Below, one piece after another: positions 2 through 15,869 of a DNA stretch of 64,000 nt. Below the pieces are notes generated by a model, which had not been told where the DNA came from, searched no databases, and was given only the letters and a program-made list of their open reading frames with translations. This DNA is from Gemmatimonadales bacterium (GTDB taxonomy: Bacteria; Gemmatimonadota; Gemmatimonadetes; Gemmatimonadales; GWC2-71-9), in contig JBFJHJ010000012.1 in the NCBI GenBank assembly GCA_041613315.1, positions 9,731-73,730 of the forward strand. Direction: 5' to 3'. A program made the position numbers and the translations under genes. Each line of letters starts with the position of its first letter. Positions within the stretch are counted from its first letter, which is position 1.

Positions 2-1045
2 GTGCGGGCCCTCGCCGAGGCAGCCGCGGATCCCGCCATGAGCCGGTATGCCTTTCAGGTGGGCCTTCCGGCGTTTCGTGAGGCGGCGGCCGGCTACATG
101 CGTCGCCGCTTTGGCGTGACGCTCGATCCAACGGCCGAGATCCTGCCGCTCCTTGGCTCCAAGGAAGGCCTCGCCCATCTGCCGGCCGCCGTGGTGAACC
201 CCGGCGAGGTGTGCGTGCTGCCCGATCCCGGGTACCCGGCCTACGTCGGGGGGGCCGTGCTGGCGGACGCGGAGATCGCGCGATATCCGCTCACCGCGGC
301 GGGGGGGTTCTTGGTCGAGCTCGACCAGCTTCCCGCCGAGCGGCTCGACCGGGTGCGGTTGGTGTATGTGAATTATCCGAACAACCCCACGGCGGCGGTG
401 GCGCCGCGGGAGTACTTGGAGCGTTTGGTGCAGTTGTGCCGCGATCGGGGGATCGTGATCGCCTACGACAACCCGTACTGTGAGATCACGTTCGACGGTT
501 ATCGTGCGCCGAGCATTCTGGAGATCCCCGGCGCTCGCGACGTGGCGGTCGAGTTCCATTCGCTGTCGAAGAGCTTCTGCATGACGGGCTGGCGCCTCGC
601 GTGGGCCGCTGGGAACGCCGAGCTCGTCGCAGCGCTGACCCGGGTCAAGACGTACGTGGACACGGGAGCGTTCTTGGCCATCCAGTACGCCGGGGCCCAC
701 GTGCTGGAGCGAGCGGCGGAGCTGGTGGAGCCGATCCGCCGGCGGTTTGCCGAGCGCCGCGATGCGGCGGTGGCGGCGCTGCGGGACACGGGGCTCGACT
801 TCGCTGCGCCGCTGGCTACGATGTATCTCTGGATTCCGGTGCCGGAGGGGGTCTCCGCCCGGAGCGTCGCAGAAGACGTCCTCGAGCGCGAGGGCGTCAT
901 GGTGCTGCCGGGCCCGGCGTTCGGTCCCGGTGGCGAAGGTTATGTCCGCCTTGCACTCACCGTCGATTCCGGCCGCCTCGCCGAAGCCGCTCGGCGGATC
1001 GGGAACACGCTCCGGCGGCTCGCGGCCGCCGGCGCACGTTCCTAG
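2..1045 (+). CDS. PLP-dependent class I/II aminotransferase, LL-diaminopimelate aminotransferase-like (5' truncated by window edge)
   Basis: Motifs LLGSKEGLAH, PDPGYPAY, NYPNNPT, YDNPY and EFHSLSKSFCMTGWR (PLP lysine); ends GEGYVRLAL. Confidence 0.88.
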   Translation: MRALAEAAADPAMSRYAFQVGLPAFREAAAGYMRRRFGVTLDPTAEILPLLGSKEGLAHLPAAVVNPGEVCVLPDPGYPAYVGGAVLADAEIARYPLTAAGGFLVELDQLPAERLDRVRLVYVNYPNNPTAAVAPREYLERLVQLCRDRGIVIAYDNPYCEITFDGYRAPSILEIPGARDVAVEFHSLSKSFCMTGWRLAWAAGNAELVAALTRVKTYVDTGAFLAIQYAGAHVLERAAELVEPIRRRFAERRDAAVAALRDTGLDFAAPLATMYLWIPVPEGVSARSVAEDVLEREGVMVLPGPAFGPGGEGYVRLALTVDSGRLAEAARRIGNTLRRLAAAGARS

Positions 1046-1064
1046 GTTCCGCCTCCCGCCTCCG

Positions 1065-1928
1065 GTGCGCGAGCGCGGCCGCCCACTGTGGGTGGCCGCG
1101 AGCGTCCTCGTCCACCTCGTCGCGGTCCTCGCGTTGGCGCGCATGGCCGGCCGCACCTTCGCCGTCTCGGAGACCACGCCATTTATCTTGCTCGAGCTAG
1201 GCCCGTCCGGCCGAGAGGTGGCGATGCCGGCCTACGCGTCGCCCGGCCAACGCGGCGCGAGCCAGGGCGGTCAGGGCCTGCGGGCGGACGAGCTGGTGGG
1301 CGAGCGCCTCGTCCCGGTCGCACCCACCACGCCGCGCGATTCGGTGATCCCGCTCCGGACCGACGAGATCGTGATGGTCGTGACCCGCGGGCCGGTGCGC
1401 TCCGACAGCGGGCCCGCCGGCGCGGAGGGCCCGCTCAGGACCGACCGGATCCTGGGCCCGGCGTACGGCGATGGCCGGCTCTGGGTGCGGCCGTTCTTCG
1501 CGGCACTCGGCGTCGTGGGCCCCTCGCCCGACGCGGCCACGCACACGGCTCGCGTCGAGGCGGCGGTCCTGGAGCGGATGAAGGCGTTCATCGACACCAT
1601 GCCGCGGGACAGCTTTGCCCTACCGCCGCCGCCGCGGTGGACCACGGACCTCGGCGGCAACACCTGGGGGATCGACCGGAACTGGATCTACCTCGGCGAC
1701 ATTAAGCTTCCGACGGCACTACTGGCCCTGCTGCCGCTTCCGCAAGGGAACTACGACCAGGCGAAGGCGGCGCAGGAGCTCCAGCGGATGCGGGAAGACA
1801 TCATCCAGGCCGCCCGACGCGCCGAGACCGCGGAGGAGTTCCGGAAGTACGTGGAGGAGCTCCGCAAACGGAAAGATGCCGAGCGCGAAGCAGCCCGAGC
1901 CGCGCAGCGGGACTCGGTGGTTCCGTAG
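1065..1928 (+). CDS. Hypothetical single-pass membrane protein with TonB/TolA-type N-terminal anchor (SxxxH)
   Basis: Frame of ORF 747..1928; TM segment LWVAASVLVHLVAVLALA, Pro/Gly-rich linker and helical charged C-terminus; start (GTG 1065) uncertain. Confidence 0.7.
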   Translation: MRERGRPLWVAASVLVHLVAVLALARMAGRTFAVSETTPFILLELGPSGREVAMPAYASPGQRGASQGGQGLRADELVGERLVPVAPTTPRDSVIPLRTDEIVMVVTRGPVRSDSGPAGAEGPLRTDRILGPAYGDGRLWVRPFFAALGVVGPSPDAATHTARVEAAVLERMKAFIDTMPRDSFALPPPPRWTTDLGGNTWGIDRNWIYLGDIKLPTALLALLPLPQGNYDQAKAAQELQRMREDIIQAARRAETAEEFRKYVEELRKRKDAEREAARAAQRDSVVP

Positions 1929-2086: not shown

Positions 2087-2599
2087 ATGGCCACGCTGTT
2101 CGCCTACGGCACCCTCATGTGGGACAACGCCCTCGCCTCGTATCGCGGGCAGCACGCCCGGGCGGAGGGCATGCGTCGGGCCTTCATCGGCCAATCCGAG
2201 CGCCGCTGGGGATCTCCCCGACATCCGTGTCCTCAGATCGGGCTGGTCGAGGGCGAGGGATGTGGCGGCGTGCTCTTCGACGTTCCTTCCGCCGACCGCC
2301 GCTACCTGTTTCGCAACCTCAAGCAGCGCGAGGGCGTGCCCCTGCGCTCGGTCCGTCTGCGGGACCACCGCGGAACGGTCATGCGGGCGCGGTGTTTTCT
2401 GCCCGACGCCGGCAGCCGCCGCTGGGAGGACGCCGAGGAGCTGCTCGAGGCGCTGCGGGCCGCGCGGGGCCTGGTGGGCACCGGGGCGGAGTACGTCCGC
2501 GCGATCGTACATGCGATGGAGCTGTGGCAGATCGACGATCCGGTGGTGACGCACATCTGGGAACGCATCCGGCACTGGGCCCCCAACCCGGTGACGTGA
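2087..2599 (+). CDS. ChaC-family gamma-glutamylcyclotransferase
   Basis: N-terminal LFAYGTLMW, RRAF..RWGSP..P, L.QREG and ARGLVGTGAEYV motifs; ATG 2087. Confidence 0.85.
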   Translation: MATLFAYGTLMWDNALASYRGQHARAEGMRRAFIGQSERRWGSPRHPCPQIGLVEGEGCGGVLFDVPSADRRYLFRNLKQREGVPLRSVRLRDHRGTVMRARCFLPDAGSRRWEDAEELLEALRAARGLVGTGAEYVRAIVHAMELWQIDDPVVTHIWERIRHWAPNPVT

Positions 2600-2608
2600 A
2601 ACGACGAC

Positions 2609-2634
2609 ACGGAACACGGACTACGGATGACGGA
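2609..2634 (+). repeat. Heptamer-period tandem repeat (ACGGA at 2609, 2616, 2623, 2630)
   Basis: Read directly: cACGGAacACGGActACGGAtgACGGA. Confidence 0.7.
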
Positions 2635-3826
2635 CACGATCTCTGGCACGTTGGAGCAGCGCCGCGACGCCGCTTCCTTCCCGTTCGGCGTCCGACCGGA
2701 GGCGGCGGCGCCCGATCGGGACGGTCGAGGGCCGGACACCATGAACCGGCTCCTGCTCCACGCGGCGCGCTACCATGCCCGGGACGCGGTCTCGCTGCGG
2801 TGGGAGGAGGGGCGCACGGAGTGGGGATGGCAGCCGATGCCGGATTGGCGCGCGGACCGGTACACGGTACGGGCGGCGCTGGTCCTCCGTCAGCGGCTCG
2901 AGGTCGCCGACGGCGAGACGGTGGCGCTGTGGCTGCCGCTGAGCACGGAATGGCCGATCGTCGAGCGGGCGGTGTGGTCCATCGGCGCCGTGAGTGTGCC
3001 GGTCTGGCCCGAGTGGGATCTCGAGCGCGTCGCGCAGGTCATGGCCGATGCGCAGCCGGCGGTGCTGGTTGCCCCGGATTGGGAAGCGGTGCGGCAGCTC
3101 CGCGTGATCGGCGGGCTCCCCGAATCCGTGCGAGGCATCGTGCTGTGGCGGGGGGCGCCGGACGACGCGCAGGACGCCCTACCGTTCGCCCAATTCCTGG
3201 ACTATGGGGGCGTGCTGGACACCGCGGAGCGGGCAGCCATGTGGCGCACCCTCACGCGGGGTCTCTCGCCGGACACGGCCGTGAGCCGTGAATACACCTC
3301 GAGCGGCCCGCTCCAGTGGGGCAAGCTGGATCACCGGATGCTCGTGGCTGCCGTGGAGCGGATGCTGCGGCGCTTTCCGGCTCATGCCGGGCGGGTCCAG
3401 GTGCTCACCACCGAGCGCCCGCACCCCACGCTGCGCGCGCTGATCTTCGCCGGCTGGGTGGACGGCCTCACCCGGACGATCTTCGCCGCGACGTCCGAGG
3501 CCCAGGAACATCTCGAGGCGTTCGTCCCGGATCTCGTCGTGGGTCCGGCGGAATCGCTCGGCAGCGTATTGCGTACGGTGCAAGCTGCTGCGGCGGCCCC
3601 GGAGCCGCCGGCGCCGCGCCGCGGACTGCTCGCCCGGCTGCTTGGGGTGCGGAGCGGTGACGACACCGCTCCGCGGCGTCGGCCACGGGCGCCGACGGTG
3701 CGGGTGCTTCTGACCGACGGCGCGCCGCCCGCCCTGGACGACGCGACCGTCACTATGCAGTTTGTGGAAGAGTCGGAGATCGACGTGTTCCCGATTGGCC
3801 CCGGCATGGCCGGCCAGGGTCAGTGA
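2627..3826 (+). CDS. AMP-binding (long-chain acyl-CoA synthetase-like) protein, degenerate and C-terminally truncated
   Basis: N-terminal ACSL-like segment (GETVALW..STEW.IVERAVWSIGAVSVPVW); P-loop eroded to EYTSSGPLQWGKLDH; no GYGxTE or TGD motifs. Confidence 0.7.
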   Translation: MTDTISGTLEQRRDAASFPFGVRPEAAAPDRDGRGPDTMNRLLLHAARYHARDAVSLRWEEGRTEWGWQPMPDWRADRYTVRAALVLRQRLEVADGETVALWLPLSTEWPIVERAVWSIGAVSVPVWPEWDLERVAQVMADAQPAVLVAPDWEAVRQLRVIGGLPESVRGIVLWRGAPDDAQDALPFAQFLDYGGVLDTAERAAMWRTLTRGLSPDTAVSREYTSSGPLQWGKLDHRMLVAAVERMLRRFPAHAGRVQVLTTERPHPTLRALIFAGWVDGLTRTIFAATSEAQEHLEAFVPDLVVGPAESLGSVLRTVQAAAAAPEPPAPRRGLLARLLGVRSGDDTAPRRRPRAPTVRVLLTDGAPPALDDATVTMQFVEESEIDVFPIGPGMAGQGQ

Positions 3827-3883
3827 GGCAACGACGTTGGGCCCGACTGGCTCGTCAGGCCCGAACACCAGAGGGAGGTTTTC

Positions 3884-5758
3884 ATGAGTGACTTGCTCGC
3901 CACGGCCACGAAAACCGCCGCGAGTCTCGCGTGGCGCACCTTCCAGAGCGTCAACACCCGCATCCCCGACAGCCCCTCCATCCAGCCCACGTGGGCGCCG
4001 GGGCCGCTCCCGAAGAGCTACGAGCGCACCAAGCCGCCCCTTGGATGGCCGCGAGAGACCGATTCGCTGTGCCCTCGGTGCGTCATCGAGGTGCGTGACG
4101 CGATCATCGCGGGTGAACGGGACATCTCCGAGTTCGTGGAACGGCGGGCAGGCGAGGTCCGCGCGCGCATCAACGAGGAGCACGGCAAGCTGATCATCCG
4201 CAAGACGTGCCCGACGCATGGGGACTTCTGGGACACGCTCTCGATCGATCCGCAGTTCAGCGCGCTCCTCGAGCGGCGATTCTTTGGTCGCGACTACCGG
4301 ACGGCGGCGGACGCGCACGTCCACCGGCATGGCACCTCCACGATCCGCTACGGTCGCGGGGCGGTGCTGACGATCGACCTGACGAACCGCTGCAACATGA
4401 TGTGCAACCCGTGCTTCATGGATGCGAACCAGGTCGGGTACGTGCACGAGCTGACGCTGGACGACATCAAGCAGATCCTCGATGACTCGATCTCCTTCAA
4501 GCCCCGGCGCCAGATGTCGGTGCAGTTCTCGGGCGGCGAGCCCACGATGTCGCCGCACTTCCTCGAGGCGTGCCGCTACGCGAAGGAAGTCGGGTATTAC
4601 ACCGTGCAGGCGGCGACCAACGGGTTGCGCTTCGCGCTCGAGCCGGAGTTCGCCTATCAGGCGAAAGAAGCCGGCCTCAACATGGCCTACTTCCAGTTCG
4701 ACGGGGTGACCAACGAGGCGAACGCGCACCGGCAGATCAGCAACCTGTTCGATGCCAAGTGGCTCGCCGTCGAGCGGATGCACGATGCCGGGATCGACAT
4801 CTCACCGGTCACGACCGTGGTGAACACGATCAACGACCAACAGGTGGGCCCGATCCTCGACTTCGTGATCGAGCACTCGGACAAGATGGGCGCCGTGTCG
4901 TTCCAGCCGGTGTCGTTCACCGGCCGCGACGAGGAGATCAGCGACGCCGACCGGCACGCCCAGCGCTACACGATCTCCCACCTGGCGCACGCGTTCGCGG
5001 AGTACTTCGACGGGAAGATCGATCCGTACCGTGACTGGTACCCGCTCGGGGCCATGGGGGCGTTCACCTGGCTGGCCGATCACCTCCGCGGGCCCGACAT
5101 CGACTTCGGCGGCGTGTCCTGTTCGTGTCACCCGAACTGCGGTGCCAGCGTGGTGTTGGCGCTCAATTCGAAGACCAAGGCGTGGGGGCCCCTGACGGAG
5201 TTCTTCAACGTCGAGCAGTTCGTGAAGGACATCAACGTCATCACGGATACGTCGCGGGGCCAGGGCTTGAGCAAGGCGCAGGCGGGGCTGGCGCTGCTCC
5301 GCAACCTCGACCAGCGCAAGATGCCCTCGGGCCTCACGGTCAAGAAGTTCCTCCAGCTTGCCAACCGGAAGATGGGTGGCGCGCTGGACGAGAAGGCCGA
5401 CCGCGACACGAAGGAGTGGAACCTGATGTGGATTGGCGGGATGTGGTTCCAGGATCTCTGGACCTATGACTTCCGCCGCACCGAGATGTGCGTGATTCCC
5501 TACGCCACCCAGGAGGGGGAGATCTCCTTCTGCGCGTACAACACGGGCGCCGGGTGGCGGAAGATCGTGGAGAACATGCACATGGTCGCGAAGACGAGCG
5601 ACTGGTTCAAGGACAAGGGCCGGCACCAGATCTATGCCGGGAACCGGCCGATGGACCTGAAGCCGGGGACGCGCGCGCTGCCGGTCGTCGAGAAGCGCCA
5701 GCTCGCCGTGCCGCACGCGGGGACCGTCCAGTTGGGCTCGGGCTGCGGCTGCCACTGA
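3884..5758 (+). CDS. tes: Radical SAM enzyme of the tetraether lipid synthase (Tes/GDGT-MAS, MJ0619-like) family
   Basis: Rubredoxin-like SLCPRC...KTCPTHG, rSAM CNMMCNPC, QFSGGEPT, YFQFDG, CHPNCG and C-terminal MCVIPYAT..ISFCAYN; GGAGG RBS upstream. Confidence 0.8.
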   Translation: MSDLLATATKTAASLAWRTFQSVNTRIPDSPSIQPTWAPGPLPKSYERTKPPLGWPRETDSLCPRCVIEVRDAIIAGERDISEFVERRAGEVRARINEEHGKLIIRKTCPTHGDFWDTLSIDPQFSALLERRFFGRDYRTAADAHVHRHGTSTIRYGRGAVLTIDLTNRCNMMCNPCFMDANQVGYVHELTLDDIKQILDDSISFKPRRQMSVQFSGGEPTMSPHFLEACRYAKEVGYYTVQAATNGLRFALEPEFAYQAKEAGLNMAYFQFDGVTNEANAHRQISNLFDAKWLAVERMHDAGIDISPVTTVVNTINDQQVGPILDFVIEHSDKMGAVSFQPVSFTGRDEEISDADRHAQRYTISHLAHAFAEYFDGKIDPYRDWYPLGAMGAFTWLADHLRGPDIDFGGVSCSCHPNCGASVVLALNSKTKAWGPLTEFFNVEQFVKDINVITDTSRGQGLSKAQAGLALLRNLDQRKMPSGLTVKKFLQLANRKMGGALDEKADRDTKEWNLMWIGGMWFQDLWTYDFRRTEMCVIPYATQEGEISFCAYNTGAGWRKIVENMHMVAKTSDWFKDKGRHQIYAGNRPMDLKPGTRALPVVEKRQLAVPHAGTVQLGSGCGCH

Positions 5759-5784
5759 CCGAGTCCCGATGGCGTGAAAGCGAC

Positions 5785-5815
5785 ACGGGCGGCTGCAAGG
5801 CCGCCCGTTCTCGTT
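5785..5815 (+). terminator. Hairpin after tes (probable terminator)
   Basis: ACGGGCGGC-tgcaag-GCCGCCCGT followed by tctcgtt. Confidence 0.55.
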
Positions 5816-5824
5816 CGCCTGTCT

Positions 5825-5906
5825 GTGGGGAGTGATATGTGAAGGGTGATACCTGAGGCACGACTTCCCACCGCTCACGTTTCACTCGTACCTCGTTCAC
5901 CTCTCA
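5825..5906. repeat. Heptamer-period imperfect palindrome between convergent tes and gltX
   Basis: GTGA at 5832/5839/5846 (CTGA 5853), then CCAC/TCAC at 5868/5875/5882. Confidence 0.6.
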
Positions 5907-7238
5907 ATGGTCGCTCTGCAGATCGGCCGGCGCCCACTCCCGAGCCGCCTCCATCCGCGCCAGGCTCTCCCCGCGCCCCACGATCTCCAGCAGCACGTTA
6001 ACGGGCTCCGAGACCGTCGTCCCGGTGAGCGCGATCCGGATCGGTTGGAAGATCTTGCCGGCGCCGACGTCCAGGGAGTCGGCGAGCTCGCGCAGCTCGG
6101 TCTCGAGCCGCGCCTGCTCCCACTCGCCATCGTCGAGCCCCCGGAGGCGCGCATGCACCGCCTGGAGCGCGTTCAGAAACCCCACGGGGTCCTTCGCGAT
6201 CTGCTCCTCCGCCTTCTCGTCCCGCTTGACGTGCGCGGCGTCCAACCGGACGCTCATCTGCCACGCGGCGTGCAGCGTCGTGCGCGCCCGCTCCCGCACC
6301 ACTTCCATCACCCGGCGGAGCCGTGCAGGCGCGTAGCGCCCGGAGTCCACGCCCGCCTGGGCGAGCAGCGGCTCCACGAGCGGGAGGAGCTCGTCCGGCG
6401 GCGTCCGGCTCATGTGTTGTCCGTTCATCCACTCCAGCTTTGCCGGATCGAAGATCGCGCTCTTCTTCTGGATCCCGTTGATCGAAAAGGCCGCCACCAG
6501 CTCGTCCGGCGCGAAGAACAACTCCCGGTCGTCGCCCGGATTCCACCCGAGGAGCGCGAGGAAGTTGCGGAGTGCCGGCGCCAGGATCCCCAGCTTGCGG
6601 TAATCACCGACCGCCGTCGCCCCGTGGCGCTTGGAGAGCCTCTTCCCGTCGGGCCCATGGATCATGGGGACGTGCGCGAAGACCGGGGGCTCGTGGCCCA
6701 GCGCGCGATATACGGCGATCTGCTTGGGGGTGTTCGAGATGTGATCGTCGCCCCGCATCACCTGCGTGATCCGCATGTCGATGTCGTCGACCACCACCGT
6801 GAGGTTGTAGGTGGGCGTGCGGTCCGAGCGCAGGATCACCCAGTCCTTGACGTCCTCGCCTCGAAACCGCACGCGCTCGTATACGGCGTCGTCCCACGCG
6901 ATCTCGCCCGTGGGCATCCGAAAGCGGATCGCGCCTTCGTGCTCGTACGCGTGGCCCTCGGCCAGGAGCCGGTCCGCGAGCTCCTGATGCCGCGCGATCC
7001 GCGCGCCCTGGAAGACGGGCTCCTCGTCCCAGTCGAGGCCGAGCCACGCGAGGCCGTCCAGGATCACGCGCGTGTGCTCCTCGGAGGAGCGCGCGCGGTC
7101 GGTGTCCTCGATGCGCAGGAGAAACGCGCCGCCCGCCTGGCGCGCGACGAGCCAGTTGAACAGCGCGGTGCGGGCCCCGCCCACGTGCAGATAGCCCGTC
7201 GGCGAGGGCGCGAACCGGACGCGGAGCGAGGGGTCCAT
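5904..7238 (-). CDS. gltX: Glutamate--tRNA ligase (short form lacking the Zn-binding insertion)
   Basis: VRFAPSPTGYLHVGG, LRIEDTD, RGDDHISNT, RLSKRHG; ATG 7238 with GGAGGA RBS at 7241-7246. Confidence 0.96.
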   Translation of the reverse strand: MDPSLRVRFAPSPTGYLHVGGARTALFNWLVARQAGGAFLLRIEDTDRARSSEEHTRVILDGLAWLGLDWDEEPVFQGARIARHQELADRLLAEGHAYEHEGAIRFRMPTGEIAWDDAVYERVRFRGEDVKDWVILRSDRTPTYNLTVVVDDIDMRITQVMRGDDHISNTPKQIAVYRALGHEPPVFAHVPMIHGPDGKRLSKRHGATAVGDYRKLGILAPALRNFLALLGWNPGDDRELFFAPDELVAAFSINGIQKKSAIFDPAKLEWMNGQHMSRTPPDELLPLVEPLLAQAGVDSGRYAPARLRRVMEVVRERARTTLHAAWQMSVRLDAAHVKRDEKAEEQIAKDPVGFLNALQAVHARLRGLDDGEWEQARLETELRELADSLDVGAGKIFQPIRIALTGTTVSEPVNVLLEIVGRGESLARMEAAREWAPADLQSDH

Positions 7239-7436
7239 GGTCCTCCATGGTGCCGGTACCACAGGATCGCGCGGGTCGTCGCCCGCTACGCGACCAGTCC
7301 CGGCGCGGCCGACCGGACGTCGGGCGCGACGTGATCGCCCAAAGGTAAACCGGGCACCGCCATTTGGGCACACGCTCCGCCCTTGCGCGGAGGCGCTTAC
7401 GACCGCACGTTGTGGGGATCCATATCGACAGGTGTA

Positions 7437-9014
7437 ATGCCAGTGAGCCGACTTCGCATCGGTATCCTCGACCTCGTCACCAAGGGTCCGACCAAGGCGT
7501 TTTACGCCCGGGTGATGCATGCCAATCTCGCGAGCATCATGCCTCAGGCCGTCGCCGTCTGGTGCGAGGAAGCCGGCCACGACGTCACCTTCGTGTGCTT
7601 CACCGGATTCGAAGACCTGCTGGAAGAGCTCCCCGATGACATGGATGTCCTGTTCATCGGGGCGTTCACGCAGGCGGCCCAGCTCTCCTACGCGCTGAGC
7701 AACATCTTCCGCCGACGTGGGGCGGTGACGGTGTTGGGTGGGCCGCACGCCCGCTGCTATCCGGATGATGCTCGGAAGTACTTCGACTATGTGGTGGGAT
7801 TCACCGACAAGACGGTGATCCAGGACATTCTCCAGGACTGCAGCGCGCATCGCCCGTACGGCGTCCACCTGAGCGCGGATCGGCAACCGCAGCACCTGCC
7901 CGGGGTCCGGGAGCGATGGAAGTTCATCGCCCCGACCATCGCCAAGGCGCCGACCAAGCTCAAAGGCGTGCCGATGATCGGCAGCCTCGGCTGTCCCTAC
8001 ACCTGCGAGTTCTGCATCGACTCGGTGGTGGACTACCAGCCGATGAGCTACGACCAGATCCGGGAAGATCTGCGGTTCCTCAACCAGCGGATGTCGCACG
8101 CGTGGGTCGGCTGGCACGACCCCAACTTCGGCGTGCGGTTCAACGACTACATGACGGCCATCGAGGACGCGATCCGTCCCGGCTCGATCACCTTCGCGGC
8201 CGAGAGCAGCCTCTCGCTCCTCTCGGAGTCCAACGTGAAGCGGATGCGGGCCGCGGGCTTCAAGGTCCTCCTGCCCGGGGTCGAGTCCTGGTTCTCCCTA
8301 GGGAACAAGTCGAAGACCGGCCGCAAACAGGGGCTCGACAAGGTGGCCCAAGTCTCGGACCACGTGAACATGCTGCTGGAGCACGTGTCGTACGTACAGG
8401 CGAACTTCGTGGTCGGCCTGGACGTGGATGAGGGCGACGAGCCGTTCGAGCTCACCAAACGCTTCATCGACCGAACGCCCGGAGCGTTCCCCGGCTATTC
8501 CTTGCTCTCGGCCTTCGGCGAAGCGGCGCCCCTCAACCTCGAGTTCCAACGCGACGGCCGGGTGCTGCCGTTCCCGTTCCACTTCCTGAACAACAACCAG
8601 GCGATGAACGTCCGGCCCAAGCATTACGCGTGGCCGGATTTCTACGACCGCGTCATCGATCTCACGAAGTACTCGTTCTCGTGGCGGGCGATCTACCGTC
8701 GAGCCCGGGCGACGCAACGCGGGTTCGCCACCTGGATGAATGTCATCCGCGCGGTCTCGTCGGAGGGCTTCGGGCGCATCAAGTACTTCCGGAAGGTGCG
8801 GCGCCTGCTCGACGAGGATCGCCAGTTCCGGGCATTCTTCGAGGGCGAGGCGACCGAGATCCCGGCCTTCTTCGTCGACCGGGTGAAGCGGGACCTGGGG
8901 CACCTGTGGCCTCACCTGCCGCCGGGCGCGCTACACCACGATCCCCTGGCGTACCTGAAGAAGACCCGCGCTCAGGCGCAGCTCGGGACCACCCCGGCGG
9001 CGTCGCTGGCGTAG
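7437..9014 (+). CDS. B12-binding-domain radical SAM protein
   Basis: N-terminal Rossmannoid segment (LFIGAFTQAA..GAVTVLGGPHA), SLGCPYTCEFC, WHDPNF, ANFVVGLD. Confidence 0.85.
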   Translation: MPVSRLRIGILDLVTKGPTKAFYARVMHANLASIMPQAVAVWCEEAGHDVTFVCFTGFEDLLEELPDDMDVLFIGAFTQAAQLSYALSNIFRRRGAVTVLGGPHARCYPDDARKYFDYVVGFTDKTVIQDILQDCSAHRPYGVHLSADRQPQHLPGVRERWKFIAPTIAKAPTKLKGVPMIGSLGCPYTCEFCIDSVVDYQPMSYDQIREDLRFLNQRMSHAWVGWHDPNFGVRFNDYMTAIEDAIRPGSITFAAESSLSLLSESNVKRMRAAGFKVLLPGVESWFSLGNKSKTGRKQGLDKVAQVSDHVNMLLEHVSYVQANFVVGLDVDEGDEPFELTKRFIDRTPGAFPGYSLLSAFGEAAPLNLEFQRDGRVLPFPFHFLNNNQAMNVRPKHYAWPDFYDRVIDLTKYSFSWRAIYRRARATQRGFATWMNVIRAVSSEGFGRIKYFRKVRRLLDEDRQFRAFFEGEATEIPAFFVDRVKRDLGHLWPHLPPGALHHDPLAYLKKTRAQAQLGTTPAASLA

Positions 9015-9148: not shown

Positions 9149-9739
9149 TTATTGGATCATTTCGGACAGTGCCGCCTGCAGACTCGCCAGCATGAGCCGC
9201 ACTTGTCCGGGCAGCCGGACCCGCCACCCCTCGCCCGTCCGCATCACCGTCACCACCTCCACGTCGCTGAAGGGGTTGCCGTCCACGTTGGTAGTGATGC
9301 GCGCGAGGACGTGTACGAGGGCGGCCCCCTCCGGCACTTCCCCCACGATCCGGAACGAGGCGTCGGCCAGCACTTCGAGCGGATTCCCGCCCTGCTCGGT
9401 ACTGAATTCCAGGAACCGCGCGAACACCCGGGCCGGGTCGAGCTGGTTCAGCTCGGCCGGGCTCGCCACCTCGAACAGGCCGAGGATTTCGCCGCCCGCC
9501 TCGGTGCCCGCAAACGCGACGAACGTGCTCCTGAACGCCGCCAGGCCCTCCGGCTCCAGGAGTCGGGCCGCGGCCACCATGCTGTCGGTGGCGAGCGCCG
9601 CGTAGTAGTCGTACGCCACCGCGGCGGCCGTGCCGGAAGCGGGCCGGGCGGCGGTCGAGTCGGGGACTTGGGCCGCGAGGGGCGTTGTCAGGAGCCACGC
9701 GGCGATCACGGCCGCGGTCCGGATGGGGCGCGAGGGCAT
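9149..9739 (-). CDS. Hypothetical exported protein
   Basis: Signal peptide ending PLAA-Q, GGAG RBS, alpha/beta body ending in a GWRV strand. Confidence 0.7.
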   Translation of the reverse strand: MPSRPIRTAAVIAAWLLTTPLAAQVPDSTAARPASGTAAAVAYDYYAALATDSMVAAARLLEPEGLAAFRSTFVAFAGTEAGGEILGLFEVASPAELNQLDPARVFARFLEFSTEQGGNPLEVLADASFRIVGEVPEGAALVHVLARITTNVDGNPFSDVEVVTVMRTGEGWRVRLPGQVRLMLASLQAALSEMIQ

Positions 9740-9858
9740 GTGGGTCTCCAGGTCGGTGTGGCACGGGCCCGTCGCGGCCGGTTCTCACCCACGCCTCGGG
9801 GGGCGGAAGACAGAGCGAGGCCGCATCCGGCGGGCGGAGCGGCCCCGGTGAGACGGGA

Positions 9859-9948
9859 CGGAGAGGGGGGGATTCGAACCCCCGATAGGGTTTTTGACCC
9901 TATAACGGTTTAGCAAACCGCCGCCTTCAGCCGCTCGGCCACCTCTCC
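9859..9948 (-). tRNA. tRNA-Ser(GCT)
   Basis: Reverse complement GGAGAGGTGGCCGAGCGGCTGAAGGCGGCGGTTT-GCT-AAACCG, long variable arm, GGTTCGAATCC, discriminator G; CCA not encoded. Confidence 0.96.
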
Positions 9949-10158
9949 AACGACAGGCGGTAGGGCGGAACGTCGCGCCGCCGCGCCTCGGTGCTCAGGT
10001 GAGCCCTCACGCCCCTTGGGCCCGCGAAACCTACGCCGCCCGGACAGTGGAAGCAACGCGCGCGCCGGCGGTTCCTGCCGCGGCGGATCGGGACCTTCTA
10101 TCTTTCGCGCGGGCTGCGGACTGCAGGATCCCTTCTCGGTTACGAAAGAAGCCGTGTC

Positions 10159-11865
10159 ATGAGCGGGACGCCAAAGAAGCAGGACTTCATCCGTGCGATG
10201 GTCGCCCGCGACGTCGAGGCGGAGAAGTACGATCGTCACGTCATGACGCGCTTCCCGCCCGAGCCCAACGGCTACCTCCATATCGGTCACGCCAAGTCGG
10301 TGTGCCTCAACTTCGGCATCGCCGAGGAGTTCGCCGGCGCGTGCAACCTGCGCTTCGACGACACGAATCCGACGACCGAGGACCTGAGCTACGTCGAGGC
10401 GATCCAGCAGGATGTGCGCTGGCTGGGCTTCGACTGGGAGGATCGGCTCTACTTCGCGTCGGACTACTTCGAGCAGCTGTACGGGTTCGCCGTGCGGCTG
10501 ATCGAACGGGGGAAGGCGTTCGTGGACAGCGCGAGCGAGGCCGAGATCCGCGAGGCCCGCGGCACGGTGAACGCACCGGGCCGGGAGAGCCCGTTCCGGA
10601 CGCGCTCGGTGGCGGAGAACCTCGACTTGTTCCGGCGGATGCGCGCGGGGGAGTTCCCCGACGGAGCCCACGTGCTGCGTGCGAAGATCGACATGACCCA
10701 TCCCAACATGCTGATGCGCGATCCGCTGCTGTATCGCATCCGGCACGCGCACCACTACCGGACCGGCGATGCGTGGTGCCTCTACCCGCTCTACGACTTC
10801 GCCCACTGCCTGTCGGACGCGATCGAAGGGATCACGCACTCGCTGTGCACCCTCGAGTTCAAGGACAACCGGGAGTTGTACGACTGGATCCTCCGGGAGG
10901 TCGGGTTCGAGCGGCCGCCCGAGCAGACCGAGTTCGCGCGGCTCAACCTCGAGCACACGGTCTTGAGCAAACGTCGTCTCGTGCAGCTCGTGAAGCAGGG
11001 ACACGTGAGCGGGTGGGACGACCCACGGATGCCTACCATCGCGGGGCTCCGGCGCCGAGGGGTGACCCCGGCGGCGCTCCGCAGCTTCTGTGACATGATC
11101 GGCGTCGCGCGGGTGGACAGCCGGGTGGACATCGGGAAGCTCGAGTATGCCATCCGGGACGACTTGAACCCCAACGTGCCGCGGGTGATGGCCGTCCTCC
11201 GCCCGCTCAAGCTCGTGATCGTGAACTACTCTGAAGGCCGGGTCGAGCAGCTGGACGCGCCGCTCTACCCGCGCGACGTCCCCAAGGAAGGTACGCGGCC
11301 GGTCCCCTTCTCGCGTGCGCTCTACATCGAGCGGGACGACTTCCTGGAGGACCCGCCCAAGGGATTCTTCCGGCTCGCGCCGGGACGGGAGGTGCGGCTC
11401 CGCTACGCCTACTTCGTGACCTGCGTGGACGTGGTCAAGGACGCGGCCGGTGAGATCACCGAGGTGCACTGCACGTACGACCCCGCGACGAAAGGCGGCG
11501 ATGCGCCGGACGGCCGCAAGGTGAAGGGGACGCTGCACTGGGTCTCGGCGGCGCACGCGCTCCGGGCCCAGGTGCGGCTGTACGACCGGCTGTTCGTGAA
11601 GCCCGATCCGGACGATGTCGGCGAGGGGGAGGCGTTCACCGACTCGCTCAACCCCGAGTCGCTGGTCGTGTTGCCGGAGGCCCGGGTCGAGCCCAGCGTG
11701 GCAGACGATCCGCCGGGGACGCGGTATCAGTTCGAGCGGCAGGGCTACTTCGTGAGCGATCCGGTGGAGTCGCGTTCCGGCGCGCTGGTCTTCAACCGGA
11801 CCGTGACGCTGCGGGATACCTGGGCGAAGATTCAGGCGAAGACGGCGGCGGCGACGGGCAGCTAG
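10159..11865 (+). CDS. glnS: Glutamine--tRNA ligase
   Basis: TRFPPEPNGYLHIGHAK, LRFDDTNP, YPLYDFAH, VLSKR, GWDDPRMPT, KVKGTLHWVS, QFERQGYF. Confidence 0.97.
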   Translation: MSGTPKKQDFIRAMVARDVEAEKYDRHVMTRFPPEPNGYLHIGHAKSVCLNFGIAEEFAGACNLRFDDTNPTTEDLSYVEAIQQDVRWLGFDWEDRLYFASDYFEQLYGFAVRLIERGKAFVDSASEAEIREARGTVNAPGRESPFRTRSVAENLDLFRRMRAGEFPDGAHVLRAKIDMTHPNMLMRDPLLYRIRHAHHYRTGDAWCLYPLYDFAHCLSDAIEGITHSLCTLEFKDNRELYDWILREVGFERPPEQTEFARLNLEHTVLSKRRLVQLVKQGHVSGWDDPRMPTIAGLRRRGVTPAALRSFCDMIGVARVDSRVDIGKLEYAIRDDLNPNVPRVMAVLRPLKLVIVNYSEGRVEQLDAPLYPRDVPKEGTRPVPFSRALYIERDDFLEDPPKGFFRLAPGREVRLRYAYFVTCVDVVKDAAGEITEVHCTYDPATKGGDAPDGRKVKGTLHWVSAAHALRAQVRLYDRLFVKPDPDDVGEGEAFTDSLNPESLVVLPEARVEPSVADDPPGTRYQFERQGYFVSDPVESRSGALVFNRTVTLRDTWAKIQAKTAAATGS

Positions 11866-11936: not shown

Positions 11937-12020
11937 CGGAGGGCGAGGGATTCGAACCCCCAAGGGCTTGCGCCCGGCGGTTTTCAAGACCGCTGCCTTA
12001 CCAGTTAGGTCTAGCCCTCC
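11937..12020 (-). tRNA. tRNA-Ser(TGA)
   Basis: Reverse complement GGAGGGC..GCGGTCT-TGA-AAACCGC, variable arm GGGC-GCAA-GCCC, GGTTCGAATCC; CCA not encoded. Confidence 0.93.
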
Positions 12021-12198: not shown

Positions 12199-12598
12199 TC
12201 GCACGCTCGTTTTAGGAGTCAAAGCGGCGTACGGCGCCTGTCTGGTCCGGATCAGAGTGGTCTGGCGGCAGAGCAAGTCCGTAGCCGCGACGCGGAGCGG
12301 CACCCTTTCTGCCTGCTATGCGTTGTCGCGCAGGGCCCGGGTCGTTGGGTACCGTGGCACATTCGCCACGGTTCGAGTCTCGAATGGCTCAGGTATGGCT
12401 CGTAATTTCCCCGGTACGACTGTCCGGTGCCGCGGTCTCGCGGTGCACCACTCCGGCTATTCCCCTCATTATGGCGTGGCAAGCCGCGTCCTCATCGATC
12501 ACCGCGGACGACCGGGGCGGTCGTCGGCGCGAGCGCAGATTCCCTCACGCGTTCGCGCCATTTTCTGCATTCCTTATCAACAAACAGGAGGTCTCGTG

Positions 12599-15500
12599 AT
12601 GAAGCATCACGTCGTTGAACGCTGGGCGACCGCGCGGCCGCGCCTGGGCATGCTCGCCACCGTTGTGGCCGGCGTCGCCCTCTGGCTCTTCGGCGGCGCC
12701 GGTATCGTCCACGCGCAAGCCACGCTGCGCGGCACCGTGAGTGGTGCCGACGGTCAGCCGATCGAAGGGGCGGAGGTGCAGATCCTCACCCTTCAGGTCT
12801 CCACCACGACCGGGGCGGACGGCACCTATTCGCTCCTCGTGCCCGCGGCGCGCCTCGCGGGTCCCGTGGCGGTGCAAGTCGTCGCTCGGCGCATCGGCCT
12901 CAGGGCCCAGCGGGTGAACGTGACCGTGAGCCCCGGGGCTACGCTGCAGCAGAACTTCCGGTTGGAGGCCGACCCGTTCATGCTCGACGCGGTCGTCGTG
13001 ACGGGGCAGGGGCTTACCGAAACCCGCCAAAAGCTGGGTGTGACGATCAACTCCGTGGACGCCCAGGACATCGTGGACAGCCGGGAGACGAACGTCGTCG
13101 CCGCGCTGGCGGGCAAGGCACCCAACGTCGAGGTGACCAAGTCGGCGGGCGACCCGGGGGCGGGGACGTACATCCGTATCCGTGGCTCGAAATCCGTCTC
13201 CGGCGGCACCCAGCCGCTCATCGTCGTGGACGGTCAGCCCATCAACAACACGAGCCATACCATTGAGACCACGGTCGCCGGCACGGTCTACCAGAACCGG
13301 GCGGCGGACCTCAACCCGAGCGACATCGCGAGCATCGAGATCCTGAAGGGCCCGGCGGCCGGCGCCATCTACGGCTCGCGCGCGTCCAGCGGTGTCGTGC
13401 TGATCACGACCAAGTCGGGGCAGCGCAACACCTCCCGGATGTCCCTCAGCTCGACCTATTCCTGGGACAAGGTCAACAAGTCGGTCCCCCTGCAGCGGCA
13501 GTTCCGGCTCGGGACCGACCAGGCGGCCGTGGGCGGCACCGGCAACAACCCGGCGGGCGTCCGCGCGTGGGGCACGCCGCTCGCGTCCGATGAGCCGAGT
13601 TACGATCACTTTGGCGAGCTGTTCCGGAACGGGCACCAGTTCGACAACACGCTCACGCTGTCGGGCGGCACGGACCTGACGACGTACTACCTATCGCTCG
13701 GGTATCTGAATCACGACGGCGTGATCGCGGGCAACTCGGCGTACGACCGGTTCACGGCGCGCCTCAAGGGGTCCCACGACTTCGCGTCGAATCTCAACGT
13801 GGGCGCCAACATCTCGTACACGTCGAGCACCGGTGACCTCGTGCAGACGGGTTCGAACATCAGCGGGCTGCTACTCGGCGGGCTGCGGACGCCGCCCGAG
13901 TTCAACAACCTGCCGTACCTCGATGCACAGACCGGGCTGCACCGGTCGTACCGGACCCCGAATCCGACGACTGTGAGCCAGAGCCGCGGCTTCGACAACC
14001 CGTTCTGGATCGCGAACGAGATCCTGAACACGACGGAAGTCGATCGCGTGTTCGGGAACGTCACGATCGACTACCAGCCGTTCCCGTGGCTCAACCTGAG
14101 CTACATGCTGGGAGCGGACTTCGCCAACGATCAGCGCCTGACGCTCTTCCCCAAAGGGTCGTCGGACTTCCCCGACGGGCGGATCATCCGTGCCGAGCTG
14201 GTGGACAAGAGCTGGGACCATTCGCTGCTCGCAACGGTCTCACGCGAAGAGAGTGCGGATCTGTCGTGGAGCGTGACCGTCGGTCAGAACCTCAACCAGG
14301 TCGAGTTCCGCCGGTACCAGGTCAACGGATTCAATCTGATTTTCGGCACGCAGCTCCTCGATTTCACGGTGGACCGCACGCCGAACGAGTTCGTCTCGAA
14401 GATCCGCACCGACGGGTACTTCGCGCAGGGCAACGTCGATCTCTATGGGCAGCTCTACCTCTCCGGGGTGCTGCGGCTGGACGGCTCCAACACGTTCGGC
14501 GGCGAGATCGATACGGTAACGGGCCAGGCGGAGTCCAGCCGGTTCCTGTATCCCAAGGGGAGCGTCGCCTGGCAGTTCCACCGCTACGTGCCGTTCTTCG
14601 ACTTTGCCAAGCTGCGGTTTGCCTACGGCCAGGCCGGAAAGCAGCCGCCGATCTTCTCGAACGTCAGCGCGTTTACGACCGGGACTTTCACGGACGGGTG
14701 GCTGTCGCCGAACGGCCTCAACTCGATCTACGCCGGTATCGACGGCGTGTTCTCACAGAACACGTTGGGCAATGCGGCGATCGAGCCTGAGAAGACGACG
14801 GAGGTCGAGGTCGGAACCGACCTCACGTTCCTGGACTCCCGGGTCTCCCTCGCCGTCACGTACTACCGTGACAAGACCGATGGCGCGATTCTGAGTCTCC
14901 CCATCGCCCCGACGACGGGCTATGGCGCCGTTCAGGCCAACGGGGCGGCGTGGCGGAACTGGGGATGGGAGAGCACGCTCGACGTCCTGCCGGTGCAGGC
15001 GTCGAATTTCGCCTGGAAGATCGGGCTCCAGTGGGCGACGAACAAAAGCATGGTGGATACGCTCCTGGGCGCGGAAGAGATCGGCCTCTCGGGCTTCACC
15101 GGCGGGACGGCGTCCATCGTCCAGGGTCAGCCGTTCCCGGTCTTCTTCGGCCGGGACTTCGTCCGCTTCGGTCGGAGCCTGCTGGTCAGTGGTGTGGACA
15201 TCGACCAGACCTATGCCGGGCAGTGGAGCGCGGGTGACCTCTATATCGCCGCGGACGGGTTCCCGCGCCTGGATCCGCAGGAGCGGGTCCTCGCCGACCT
15301 GAGCCCCAAGTGGACTGGCAGCGTGCGCAACACCTTCACGCTGTTCGGGAAGGTGCGCGTGTCGTCGCTGTTCGACGTCAAGCACGGCGGCTTCACGTGG
15401 AACGGTACGAAGGGCGCGCTGGTCAGCTACGGCACCGCCGCGGTCACCATCCCGTGGCATGGCGCCGGAGCGGACACGGTGTTCCCCGGCGCCGGACCGG

Positions 15501-15838
15501 GGGCAGGCCAGACCGTGAAGCTGAACTGGTCCACGTGGGGCCAGAACGGTCTCGGCAGCGGGTTCAACGGGCCGCGGTCGCTGTACGTCGAGCCGTCGGG
15601 GTTCGTGAAGCTCCGGGATATCTCGGTGGCCTTCACGCTGGACGGCCGGTGGCTGCGCCAGATCGGTTTCCAGACGCTCGATGTGACGCTGAGCGGACGG
15701 AACCTGGCGACGTGGACCGACTACACGGGCATCGATCCTGAATCGAACCTGAACGGCCAGACGACGGGGCGCGGGCTGGAGTACTTCAACCACCCGCAGA
15801 CCCGGTCCTTCGTCGTCGGCTTCACCCTTCACCGATAG
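12599..15838 (+). CDS. SusC/RagA-family TonB-dependent transporter (copy 1)
   Basis: AGGAGG RBS; signal peptide, CarboxypepD-reg-like N-domain, TonB box LDAVVVTG, plug PLIVVDG..DLNPSDIASIEILKGPAAGAIYGSRA, barrel end YTGIDPE..P..RSF. Confidence 0.95.
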   Translation: MKHHVVERWATARPRLGMLATVVAGVALWLFGGAGIVHAQATLRGTVSGADGQPIEGAEVQILTLQVSTTTGADGTYSLLVPAARLAGPVAVQVVARRIGLRAQRVNVTVSPGATLQQNFRLEADPFMLDAVVVTGQGLTETRQKLGVTINSVDAQDIVDSRETNVVAALAGKAPNVEVTKSAGDPGAGTYIRIRGSKSVSGGTQPLIVVDGQPINNTSHTIETTVAGTVYQNRAADLNPSDIASIEILKGPAAGAIYGSRASSGVVLITTKSGQRNTSRMSLSSTYSWDKVNKSVPLQRQFRLGTDQAAVGGTGNNPAGVRAWGTPLASDEPSYDHFGELFRNGHQFDNTLTLSGGTDLTTYYLSLGYLNHDGVIAGNSAYDRFTARLKGSHDFASNLNVGANISYTSSTGDLVQTGSNISGLLLGGLRTPPEFNNLPYLDAQTGLHRSYRTPNPTTVSQSRGFDNPFWIANEILNTTEVDRVFGNVTIDYQPFPWLNLSYMLGADFANDQRLTLFPKGSSDFPDGRIIRAELVDKSWDHSLLATVSREESADLSWSVTVGQNLNQVEFRRYQVNGFNLIFGTQLLDFTVDRTPNEFVSKIRTDGYFAQGNVDLYGQLYLSGVLRLDGSNTFGGEIDTVTGQAESSRFLYPKGSVAWQFHRYVPFFDFAKLRFAYGQAGKQPPIFSNVSAFTTGTFTDGWLSPNGLNSIYAGIDGVFSQNTLGNAAIEPEKTTEVEVGTDLTFLDSRVSLAVTYYRDKTDGAILSLPIAPTTGYGAVQANGAAWRNWGWESTLDVLPVQASNFAWKIGLQWATNKSMVDTLLGAEEIGLSGFTGGTASIVQGQPFPVFFGRDFVRFGRSLLVSGVDIDQTYAGQWSAGDLYIAADGFPRLDPQERVLADLSPKWTGSVRNTFTLFGKVRVSSLFDVKHGGFTWNGTKGALVSYGTAAVTIPWHGAGADTVFPGAGPGAGQTVKLNWSTWGQNGLGSGFNGPRSLYVEPSGFVKLRDISVAFTLDGRWLRQIGFQTLDVTLSGRNLATWTDYTGIDPESNLNGQTTGRGLEYFNHPQTRSFVVGFTLHR

Positions 15839-15869
15839 GCCGCGGGGCGCGGAAAGAAAGGAACACGAC

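What the first reader, a model, noticed from the sequence alone, without database searches (positions are those of the whole stretch)
2087..9014. Candidate bacterial membrane-spanning (brGDGT-type) lipid locus built around a Tes homolog
Seen: ORF 3884-5758 has the Tes/GDGT-MAS layout (CxxC...CxxH rubredoxin-like site, CxxxCxxC, HPxC, C-terminal C..Y...FCxYN). It is co-oriented behind ChaC and an acyl-CoA-synthetase-like gene, and a B12-radical SAM gene lies 1.7 kb downstream. Known: Tes couples lipid tails tail-to-tail in archaeal GDGTs; bacterial homologs are candidates for branched GDGT synthesis, whose producers are poorly known outside Acidobacteria. Inference: this probable Gemmatimonadota organism may make membrane-spanning lipids using a lipid-handling partner.
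Basis: partly seen in the sequence, partly recalled or inferred. Interest (0 to 1): 0.78.

Follow-up and report, generated by a model that had tools for sequence, protein, structure and literature searches.

The report
Divergent bacterial tetraether-synthase three-gene module
This bacterium carries a divergent relative of the archaeal enzyme that welds two lipid tails together, in a conserved gene trio with a truncated fatty-acid ligase and a glutathione-cleaving-type enzyme; it likely makes membrane-spanning lipids, but nothing here shows that they would be the ether-linked climate-proxy lipids.

Summary
ORF 3884-5758 is a real homologue of archaeal Tes/GDGT-MAS (MJ0619): the only PDB sequence hit, model Z 35.8. 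It is not a canonical member. It scores 304 against a cut-off of 450 bits and has lost the N-terminal [4Fe-4S] ligands, while keeping the rubredoxin site, the radical-SAM site and the C-terminal cluster residues. The upstream 'acyl-CoA synthetase' is a truncated ligase without the ATP-binding loop. It is under purifying selection, lies beside the enzyme in 9 of 9 carriers among 201 phylum genomes, and is fused to it in four proteins. ChaC-like genes precede it in 24 of 80 related loci. The real fourth partner is an HpnR-like methylase, present in the 8 other carriers but not found here (83% complete). No Ger-type ether enzyme was found in 12 genomes searched. Best reading: radical coupling of acyl tails into ester-linked spanning lipids, untested. 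Bacterial Tes homologues have been proposed in print since 2022, and this scan found the module before on other DNA.

The parts
2087..2599 (+). ChaC-like gamma-glutamylcyclotransferase-fold gene (170 aa); Glu82 kept; family-specific invariant PCP motif
   Evidence: Pfam PF04752; alignment A3; PDB hits are ChaC2-type glutathione-specific cyclotransferases; dN/dS 0.07-0.22 in 7 pairs of relatives
2627..3826 (+). Truncated long-chain acyl-CoA-ligase derivative without ATP-binding loop and C-terminal half (399 aa); predicted non-catalytic partner of the Tes-like enzyme
   Evidence: beside the Tes-like gene in 9 of 9 carriers; fused to it in P0062, P0065, P0078, P0102; dN/dS 0.12-0.39 in 8 pairs
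3884..5758 (+). Tes/GDGT-MAS-like radical SAM enzyme of the bacterial branch lacking the N-terminal [4Fe-4S] motif (624 aa)
   Evidence: NF045702 303.6 bits, cut-off 450; 7TOL only PDB hit, E 1e-59; model against 7TOM Z 35.8, rmsd 3.2, 470 aligned; tree
5904..7240 (-). gltX, glutamate--tRNA ligase (start approximate); separates the trio from the B12 gene; not part of the module
   Evidence: TIGR00464 439 bits over cut-off 290; not near Tes in any of 80 loci
7383..9014 (+). B12-binding radical SAM gene of a family common in the class; probably not part of the module
   Evidence: orthologues in 57 of 201 genomes, with varied neighbours; near Tes in 1 of 80 loci

Best explanation
The trio encodes a Tes-like radical SAM enzyme that likely joins the ends of two fatty-acyl tails into a membrane-spanning, probably ester-linked lipid, a truncated ligase that likely serves as its non-catalytic partner, and a ChaC-like enzyme that may support its sulfur supply. 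SHOWN: homology and fold; conserved radical-SAM, rubredoxin and C-terminal cluster residues; loss of the N-terminal cluster ligands; gene linkage, fusion and purifying selection. INFERRED from MJ0619 (Lloyd 2022): SAM cleavage gives a radical that takes a hydrogen from a tail terminus; this first radical is parked on a sulfur of the C-terminal cluster; a second radical displaces it and forms the C-C bond. The lost cluster lies on the protein surface, so the core chemistry could survive. INFERRED, weaker: the substrate is an iso-branched phospholipid, giving an iso-diabolic-acid-type C30 chain; the dead ligase binds and presents the acyl chain or anchors the enzyme; in relatives an HpnR-like B12 enzyme methylates the product. 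GUESS: the ChaC-like protein frees cysteine from a gamma-glutamyl thiol for cluster repair.
For: 7TOL is the only PDB sequence match. The model matches 7TOM at Z 35.8 against 19.8 for the next entry (TM-score 0.81 by target). Of 13 active-site residues named by Lloyd et al., 12 map to identical residues in the printed alignment (F178, G218, Y269, D273, V309, T311, Q341, S344, T346, R348, M520, Y540) and Arg210 to R283 with a one-column shift; all are invariant in 72 of 72. Partners point to lipids: a derivative of long-chain acyl-CoA ligase; a B12 enzyme whose best family is the hopanoid methylase HpnR (334.5 bits, cut-off 650), found in the 8 other carriers and at orthologue level in none of the remaining 192 genomes, while 7 of those 8 lack squalene-hopene cyclase; flippase-like, DedA/VTT and PlsC genes in several loci. 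The same branch is found by score in 141 of 301 Acidobacteriota genomes, the phylum known for iso-diabolic acid without mss. A cultured marine Gemmatimonadota genus has 32-43% iso-C15:0.
Against: No bacterial Tes homologue had been validated in the papers I read, the latest from June 2026. The protein fails the curated Tes cut-off and is 27-29% identical to MJ0619 in structural alignment. It has extra conserved cysteines (C413 in 69 of 72, C415 in 72 of 72) and a new invariant D143/H147/H149 set that could change the chemistry. Under strict cut-offs Tes homologues were found in only 3 of 14 iso-diabolic-acid-producing acidobacteria. The dead ligase was found in 0 of 301 Acidobacteriota genomes (only 7 candidates scored per genome, no positive control in that sample), so the main acidobacterial branch appears to work without it. 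The module is rare and patchy (0 of 60 sampled relatives). I could not inspect the lipid pockets of the model. ChaC has no known link to lipid synthesis (my knowledge).
Confidence: 0.5

Rival explanations
1. Same C-C coupling chemistry, but on acyl chains held off the membrane (acyl-CoA, acyl-carrier or free acid bound by the dead ligase), or on another lipid class, giving a diacid or macrocycle that is incorporated later or used as a specialised metabolite.
For: The partner derives from an enzyme that binds single fatty acids, is tightly linked (start within about 100 bp in 32 of 36 loci) and is fused in one lineage. Patchy distribution and a gene tree that mixes three phyla fit an accessory pathway.
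Against: MJ0619 binds intact phospholipids, including bacterial ones. Branch members without the partner keep the same active-site residues.
Confidence: 0.2
2. A different radical reaction, such as sulfur insertion or thioether formation on a lipid or small molecule, with the ChaC-like enzyme handling a glutathione-linked intermediate.
For: MJ0619 passes through a carbon-sulfur intermediate. This branch has extra invariant Cys/His residues, and the ChaC-like partner has invariant C48 and C59. ChaC is linked in 24 of 80 loci in two phyla.
Against: ChaC is absent from the other 56 of 80 loci; its Glu82 is replaced in some members; Met439 and Tyr459 equivalents are invariant.
Confidence: 0.15
3. 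One reading: the locus, with the downstream B12 enzyme, makes true ether-linked branched GDGTs.
For: Solibacter usitatus was found as a brGDGT producer through a Tes homologue. All 9 carriers also encode the downstream B12 family, and its closest homologue (76%) lies in a Tes locus in G159.
Against: That Solibacter homologue is 40% identical to archaeal Tes, far closer than this branch. DUF2229 (Ger/PlsA) was found in 0 of 1 and 0 of 11 genomes. The activase hits here are benzoyl-CoA-reductase-like, the FAD oxidase is GlcD-like, and the only reductase-domain hit is weak. 48 of 192 non-carriers have the B12 family.
Confidence: 0.12

Closest known systems
Archaeal tetraether synthase Tes / GDGT-MAS (MJ0619; PDB 7TOL, 7TOM; NCBIfam NF045702)
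   Same: Fold over 470 residues, rubredoxin C-C-C-H site, radical-SAM motif, SAM-binding residues, Met439 and Tyr459 equivalents
   Different: No N-terminal [4Fe-4S] ligands; about 55-residue N-terminal extension; extra Cys; below the family cut-off; bacterial host; dead-ligase, ChaC-like and HpnR-like partners
Bacterial Tes homologues proposed for brGDGT synthesis (Zeng 2022; Chen 2022; Halamka 2023)
   Same: Same hypothesis; Zeng lists 456 bacterial homologues, including weaker ones (Edaphobacter aggregans, 32%)
   Different: The passages I read do not separate the two branches, name Gemmatimonadota or describe the partner genes; none is validated
Mss membrane-spanning lipid synthase with Ger (Sahonero-Canavesi 2022)
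   Same: Radical SAM tail-to-tail coupling of bacterial fatty acids, the product proposed here
   Different: A separate family, described as only remotely related to Tes and found in anaerobes; I had no Mss query, so its presence in this genome was not tested
Long-chain acyl-CoA ligase (ANL superfamily; FadD15/FAA1-type label recalled)
   Same: N-terminal half aligns with the genome's own intact paralogue (124 bits)
   Different: ATP-binding loop and C-terminal half absent; own invariant motifs (W74/R78; D198-T-x-E-R-A203)
HpnR hopanoid C-3 methylase (TIGR04367), for the fourth gene seen in relatives
   Same: Best family hit, full-length B12 radical SAM
   Different: 334.5 bits against a cut-off of 650; 7 of 8 carriers lack squalene-hopene cyclase; not found in this genome

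Membership tests
Tes/GDGT-MAS | Radical-SAM CxxxCxxC and SAM-binding residues | tested here: met
   C170/174/177, F178, G218, Q341, S344 invariant in 72 of 72
Tes/GDGT-MAS | Rubredoxin-like CxxC..CxxH site | tested here: met
   C63, C66, C109, H112 in 72 of 72
Tes/GDGT-MAS | N-terminal [4Fe-4S] cluster (C73, C77, C80, His) | tested here: not met
   Aligned to H145, H149, S152, R155; motif in 17 of 17 canonical and 0 of 11 divergent phylum loci
Tes/GDGT-MAS | C-terminal cluster, 3 Cys + Met439 | tested here: met
   M520 = Met439; C419, C536, C550 invariant and aligned to MJ0619 cysteines. Which MJ0619 cysteines are the ligands was not stated in the passages read, so that mapping is inferred
Tes/GDGT-MAS | NF045702 cut-off of 450 bits | tested here: not met
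   303.6 bits
Tes/GDGT-MAS | Overall fold | tested here: met
   Z 35.8, rmsd 3.2, 470 aligned to 7TOM; model mean pLDDT 81.7
Tes/GDGT-MAS | Two hydrophobic lipid pockets; tail-to-tail C-C bond formation | not testable with these tools
Acyl-CoA synthetase (ANL) | ATP-binding loop and downstream adenylation motifs | tested here: not met
   Loop pattern in 0 of 39, YGxTE-type pattern in 0 of 39 (patterns recalled); intact paralogue has both
ChaC gamma-glutamylcyclotransferase | Pfam match, N-terminal YG(S/T)L motif, catalytic Glu | tested here: met
   PF04752 46 bits over cut-off 21; E82 at 90% or more; its catalytic role is recalled, and glutathione specificity is untested
brGDGT pathway | Ether-forming enzyme (Ger/PlsA, ElbD or AgpS) | tested here: inconclusive
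   DUF2229 0 of 1 and 0 of 11; no ElbD- or AgpS-like hit in this 83%-complete genome by proxy domains; unknown routes not excluded
brGDGT pathway | Mss homologue | not tested
   No Mss sequence or profile was on hand
brGDGT pathway | iso-C15 precursor | tested here: inconclusive
   One FabH-type and five E1-type genes do not show branched-chain specificity; a cultured marine member of the phylum has iso-C15:0

The most novel reading that the evidence does not exclude
The Tes-like enzyme, dead ligase, ChaC-like enzyme and HpnR-like methylase form the missing non-Mss bacterial route to methylated membrane-spanning lipids: tail coupling plus the extra chain methylation on which brGDGT temperature proxies rest, running in Gemmatimonadota, Myxococcota and Acidobacteriota.
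Probability: 0.15. Interest if true: 0.85.

Novelty: new variant of a known kind. Interest (0 to 1): 0.5.

Why it matters
The enzyme that makes iso-diabolic acid and brGDGTs in aerobic bacteria is an open question, and the lipids are widely used as palaeoclimate proxies. This work splits bacterial Tes homologues into two branches and names a small, co-inherited gene set that can be expressed and assayed. Earlier cut-off-based surveys may have missed the divergent branch, and single-gene expression may fail without the partner. This genome is one of many carriers, is known only from sequence, and lacks the methylase in its assembly, so it is not the best test case.

Tried and rejected
Single-sequence fold of the dead ligase failed (mean pLDDT 39) and was not used. 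The complex prediction of enzyme and dead ligase was not available, so physical binding has no verdict. Read-level support for the assembly stayed unchecked. Sequencing-run search: no RNA holder listed; a fifth run with a 0.19 share was not used. Promoter scan found 0 sites (0.4 expected) and 3 terminator-like sites (3.0 expected), uninformative. The maximum-likelihood tree did not finish; FastTree was used, with no archaeal rows, midpoint rooted, and with a long-branch warning (106 of 111 rows; three rows under 480 aa, one duplicate of the window and one non-homologue left out). ESM Atlas returned only AMP-binding clusters. Hopanoid role rejected: no squalene-hopene cyclase in this genome or in 7 of 8 other carriers. 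Pseudogene reading of the ligase rejected (dN/dS 0.12-0.39). BcrAD-domain hits rejected as Ger. Acidobacterial hits to the HpnR-like protein were only 31-39% identical in 19 of 301 genomes, not orthologue level.
Full report
OBSERVATION. The window is contig C12 of a 2.63-Mb assembly, 82.9% complete. Three co-oriented genes lie at 2087-2599, 2627-3826 and 3884-5758, with gaps of 27 and 57 bp. Pfam names them ChaC, a partial AMP-binding domain, and radical SAM with an HMPTM zinc ribbon. An intact gltX on the minus strand follows; the B12 radical-SAM gene at 7383-9014 starts divergently from it. The nearest protein and genome hits are labelled Gemmatimonadota. Four runs of one study, labelled marine metagenome, hold 95-97% of the sampled words; one may be the source sample.

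THE ENZYME. GDGT-MAS of Methanocaldococcus jannaschii is the only PDB sequence hit (E 1e-59; E 4e-86 with a 72-row profile, next hit E 5e-6). An AlphaFold model (mean pLDDT 81.7) matches 7TOM at Z 35.8, rmsd 3.2 over 470 residues; the next entry, MoaA, scores 19.8. Reading the printed alignment with the 20-residue offset of the PDB chain, the rubredoxin, radical-SAM, Met439 and Tyr459 positions and the SAM-contacting residues named by Lloyd et al. are kept and invariant in 72 of 72 homologues. The N-terminal cluster ligands C73, C77, C80 and His are not: they align to H145, H149, S152 and R155, and D143, H147 and H149 are invariant instead. The NCBIfam Tes score is 303.6 against a cut-off of 450. 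It works like Tes by anatomy, but it is not a member by two tested criteria.

TWO BRANCHES. Among 201 genomes of the phylum, 17 pass the Tes cut-off, all among the 18 genomes of other classes (the 18th has a split gene). 11 of the 183 genomes of the own class carry the divergent type. The N-terminal motif is in 17 of 17 and 0 of 11 loci respectively. A FastTree tree separates the two with full local support, but it has no archaeal rows and carries a long-branch warning. The divergent branch spans Gemmatimonadota, Acidobacteriota, Myxococcota, Latescibacterota, Calditrichota and others. By score alone (E below 1e-170, my count from the table) it is in 141 of 301 Acidobacteriota genomes; 37 have weaker matches and 123 none (the 141 include the unpublished G228, G253, G350). 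The window protein is closer to genomes of another order (81-82%) than to its own family (68-74%), and 0 of 60 sampled relatives carry it, which suggests horizontal spread.

THE DEAD LIGASE. A 39-row profile aligns it with the N-terminal half of the genome's own intact long-chain acyl-CoA ligase. The ATP-binding loop pattern is in 0 of 39. It is not decaying: dN/dS is 0.12-0.39 in 8 pairs. It lies directly upstream of the enzyme in 36 of 80 named loci, in three phyla (a 37th is cut by a contig end). These loci are not independent: four have an enzyme identical to that of a sampled genome. In the phylum sample it occurs in 9 of 201 genomes, always beside the enzyme; the two more distant carriers G104 and G186 lack it. 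Four database proteins fuse it to the enzyme's N-terminus; they are 76-82% identical to each other, so probably one event. It was not found in 301 Acidobacteriota genomes, with few candidates scored and no positive control.

CHAC AND B12 PARTNERS. The ChaC-like gene precedes the pair in 24 of 80 loci in two phyla, once inverted, and is under purifying selection. The window's B12 gene has an orthologue near the enzyme in 1 of 80 loci and is present in 57 of 201 genomes (one, G056, unpublished) with varied neighbours in the 11 other loci viewed. All 9 carriers have it, against 48 of 192 non-carriers, and its closest homologue sits in a Tes locus, so a loose link is not excluded. A different B12 family is the consistent partner. 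Neighbour clustering found it; it lies within 8 kb in 14 of 80 loci, with a related type in 10 more (profiles built from these same proteins). Orthologues occur in exactly the 8 other carriers of the pair; one further genome has a weak 38% hit. Its best family is HpnR, below cut-off, and 7 of the 8 lack squalene-hopene cyclase. It was not found in this assembly.

ETHER BONDS. The Ger/PlsA domain DUF2229 was found in 0 of 1 and 0 of 11 genomes; the control rang in Thermotoga maritima. Proxy domains gave no ElbD- or AgpS-like gene here. Mss was not tested. The brGDGT label therefore lacks support; an ester-linked product is the simpler reading.

MECHANISM. See Best explanation: tail-to-tail coupling by the MJ0619 route, 0.5; off-membrane or other-lipid coupling, 0.2; sulfur chemistry, 0.15; true brGDGTs, 0.12.

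LITERATURE SEEN. Passages only: PMC8941075 (three supplements searched without a hit for four phylum names, one picture PDF unreadable), PMC10087280, PMC13274423, 10.1101/2022.04.07.487437, PMC9433317, 10.64898/2026.06.23.733905 (supplements closed), PMC11868695, PMC11214058, PMC11651109, 10.64898/2026.09.04.749484. PMC13459092: passages and section 2.1. PMC13159169: passages, supplement search and part of Table S21. The hypothesis for bacterial Tes homologues is in print since 2022 and was called unvalidated in June 2026. Searches listed no paper on the cluster-less branch or its partner genes; subscription journals are not covered, and unseen tree figures in supplements may bear on this.

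EARLIER SCAN NOTES. Follow-ups on other genomes reached similar readings. They are not independent evidence; the counts above are my own.

VERDICT. Real and conserved; a new variant of a known enzyme kind with an untested, already proposed function and a well-defined partner set. Interest 0.5.

Noticed in passing
L001-L017 (G002-G030, families f10-f12): Canonical Tes with all four metal motifs passes the cut-off in 17 of 18 sampled genomes of the other classes of the phylum; these are better candidates for archaeal-like chemistry than the window gene.
   Followed up: partly
L063 and L064 (record OZ244937.1): One Latescibacterota chromosome has two copies of the divergent enzyme, identical in the tree columns; one near a B12 radical SAM gene, one before the tig-clpX region.
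   Followed up: no
L113, L114, L124; L115, L117, L120, L104: In acidobacterial genomes the divergent enzyme lies beside lpxA/lpxD-like genes (recognised from sequence), or behind an Rrf2-family regulator.
   Followed up: no
L033, L038, L147; L035, L036, L045; L055, L094, L096, L099; L044, L050: Flippase-like, DedA/VTT and PlsC acyltransferase genes recur next to the enzyme in separate sub-branches.
   Followed up: partly
window 7383-9014: B12 radical SAM family of unknown function, 57-76% identical across 57 of 201 phylum genomes, with no curated family over cut-off.
   Followed up: partly
window 9856-9949 and 11937-12020: Two tRNA-Ser genes flank a glutamine--tRNA ligase gene (10159-11865).
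   Followed up: no
window 12257-17267: SusC-like TonB-dependent receptor and SusD-like lipoprotein pair.
   Followed up: no
window 747-1928 and 9149-9739: Two open frames without Pfam or NCBIfam match; the second has a signal-peptide-like start.
   Followed up: no
L145 (G000:C4:18500-30500): Benzoyl-CoA-reductase-like gene cluster, all subunits checked below curated cut-offs.
   Followed up: partly
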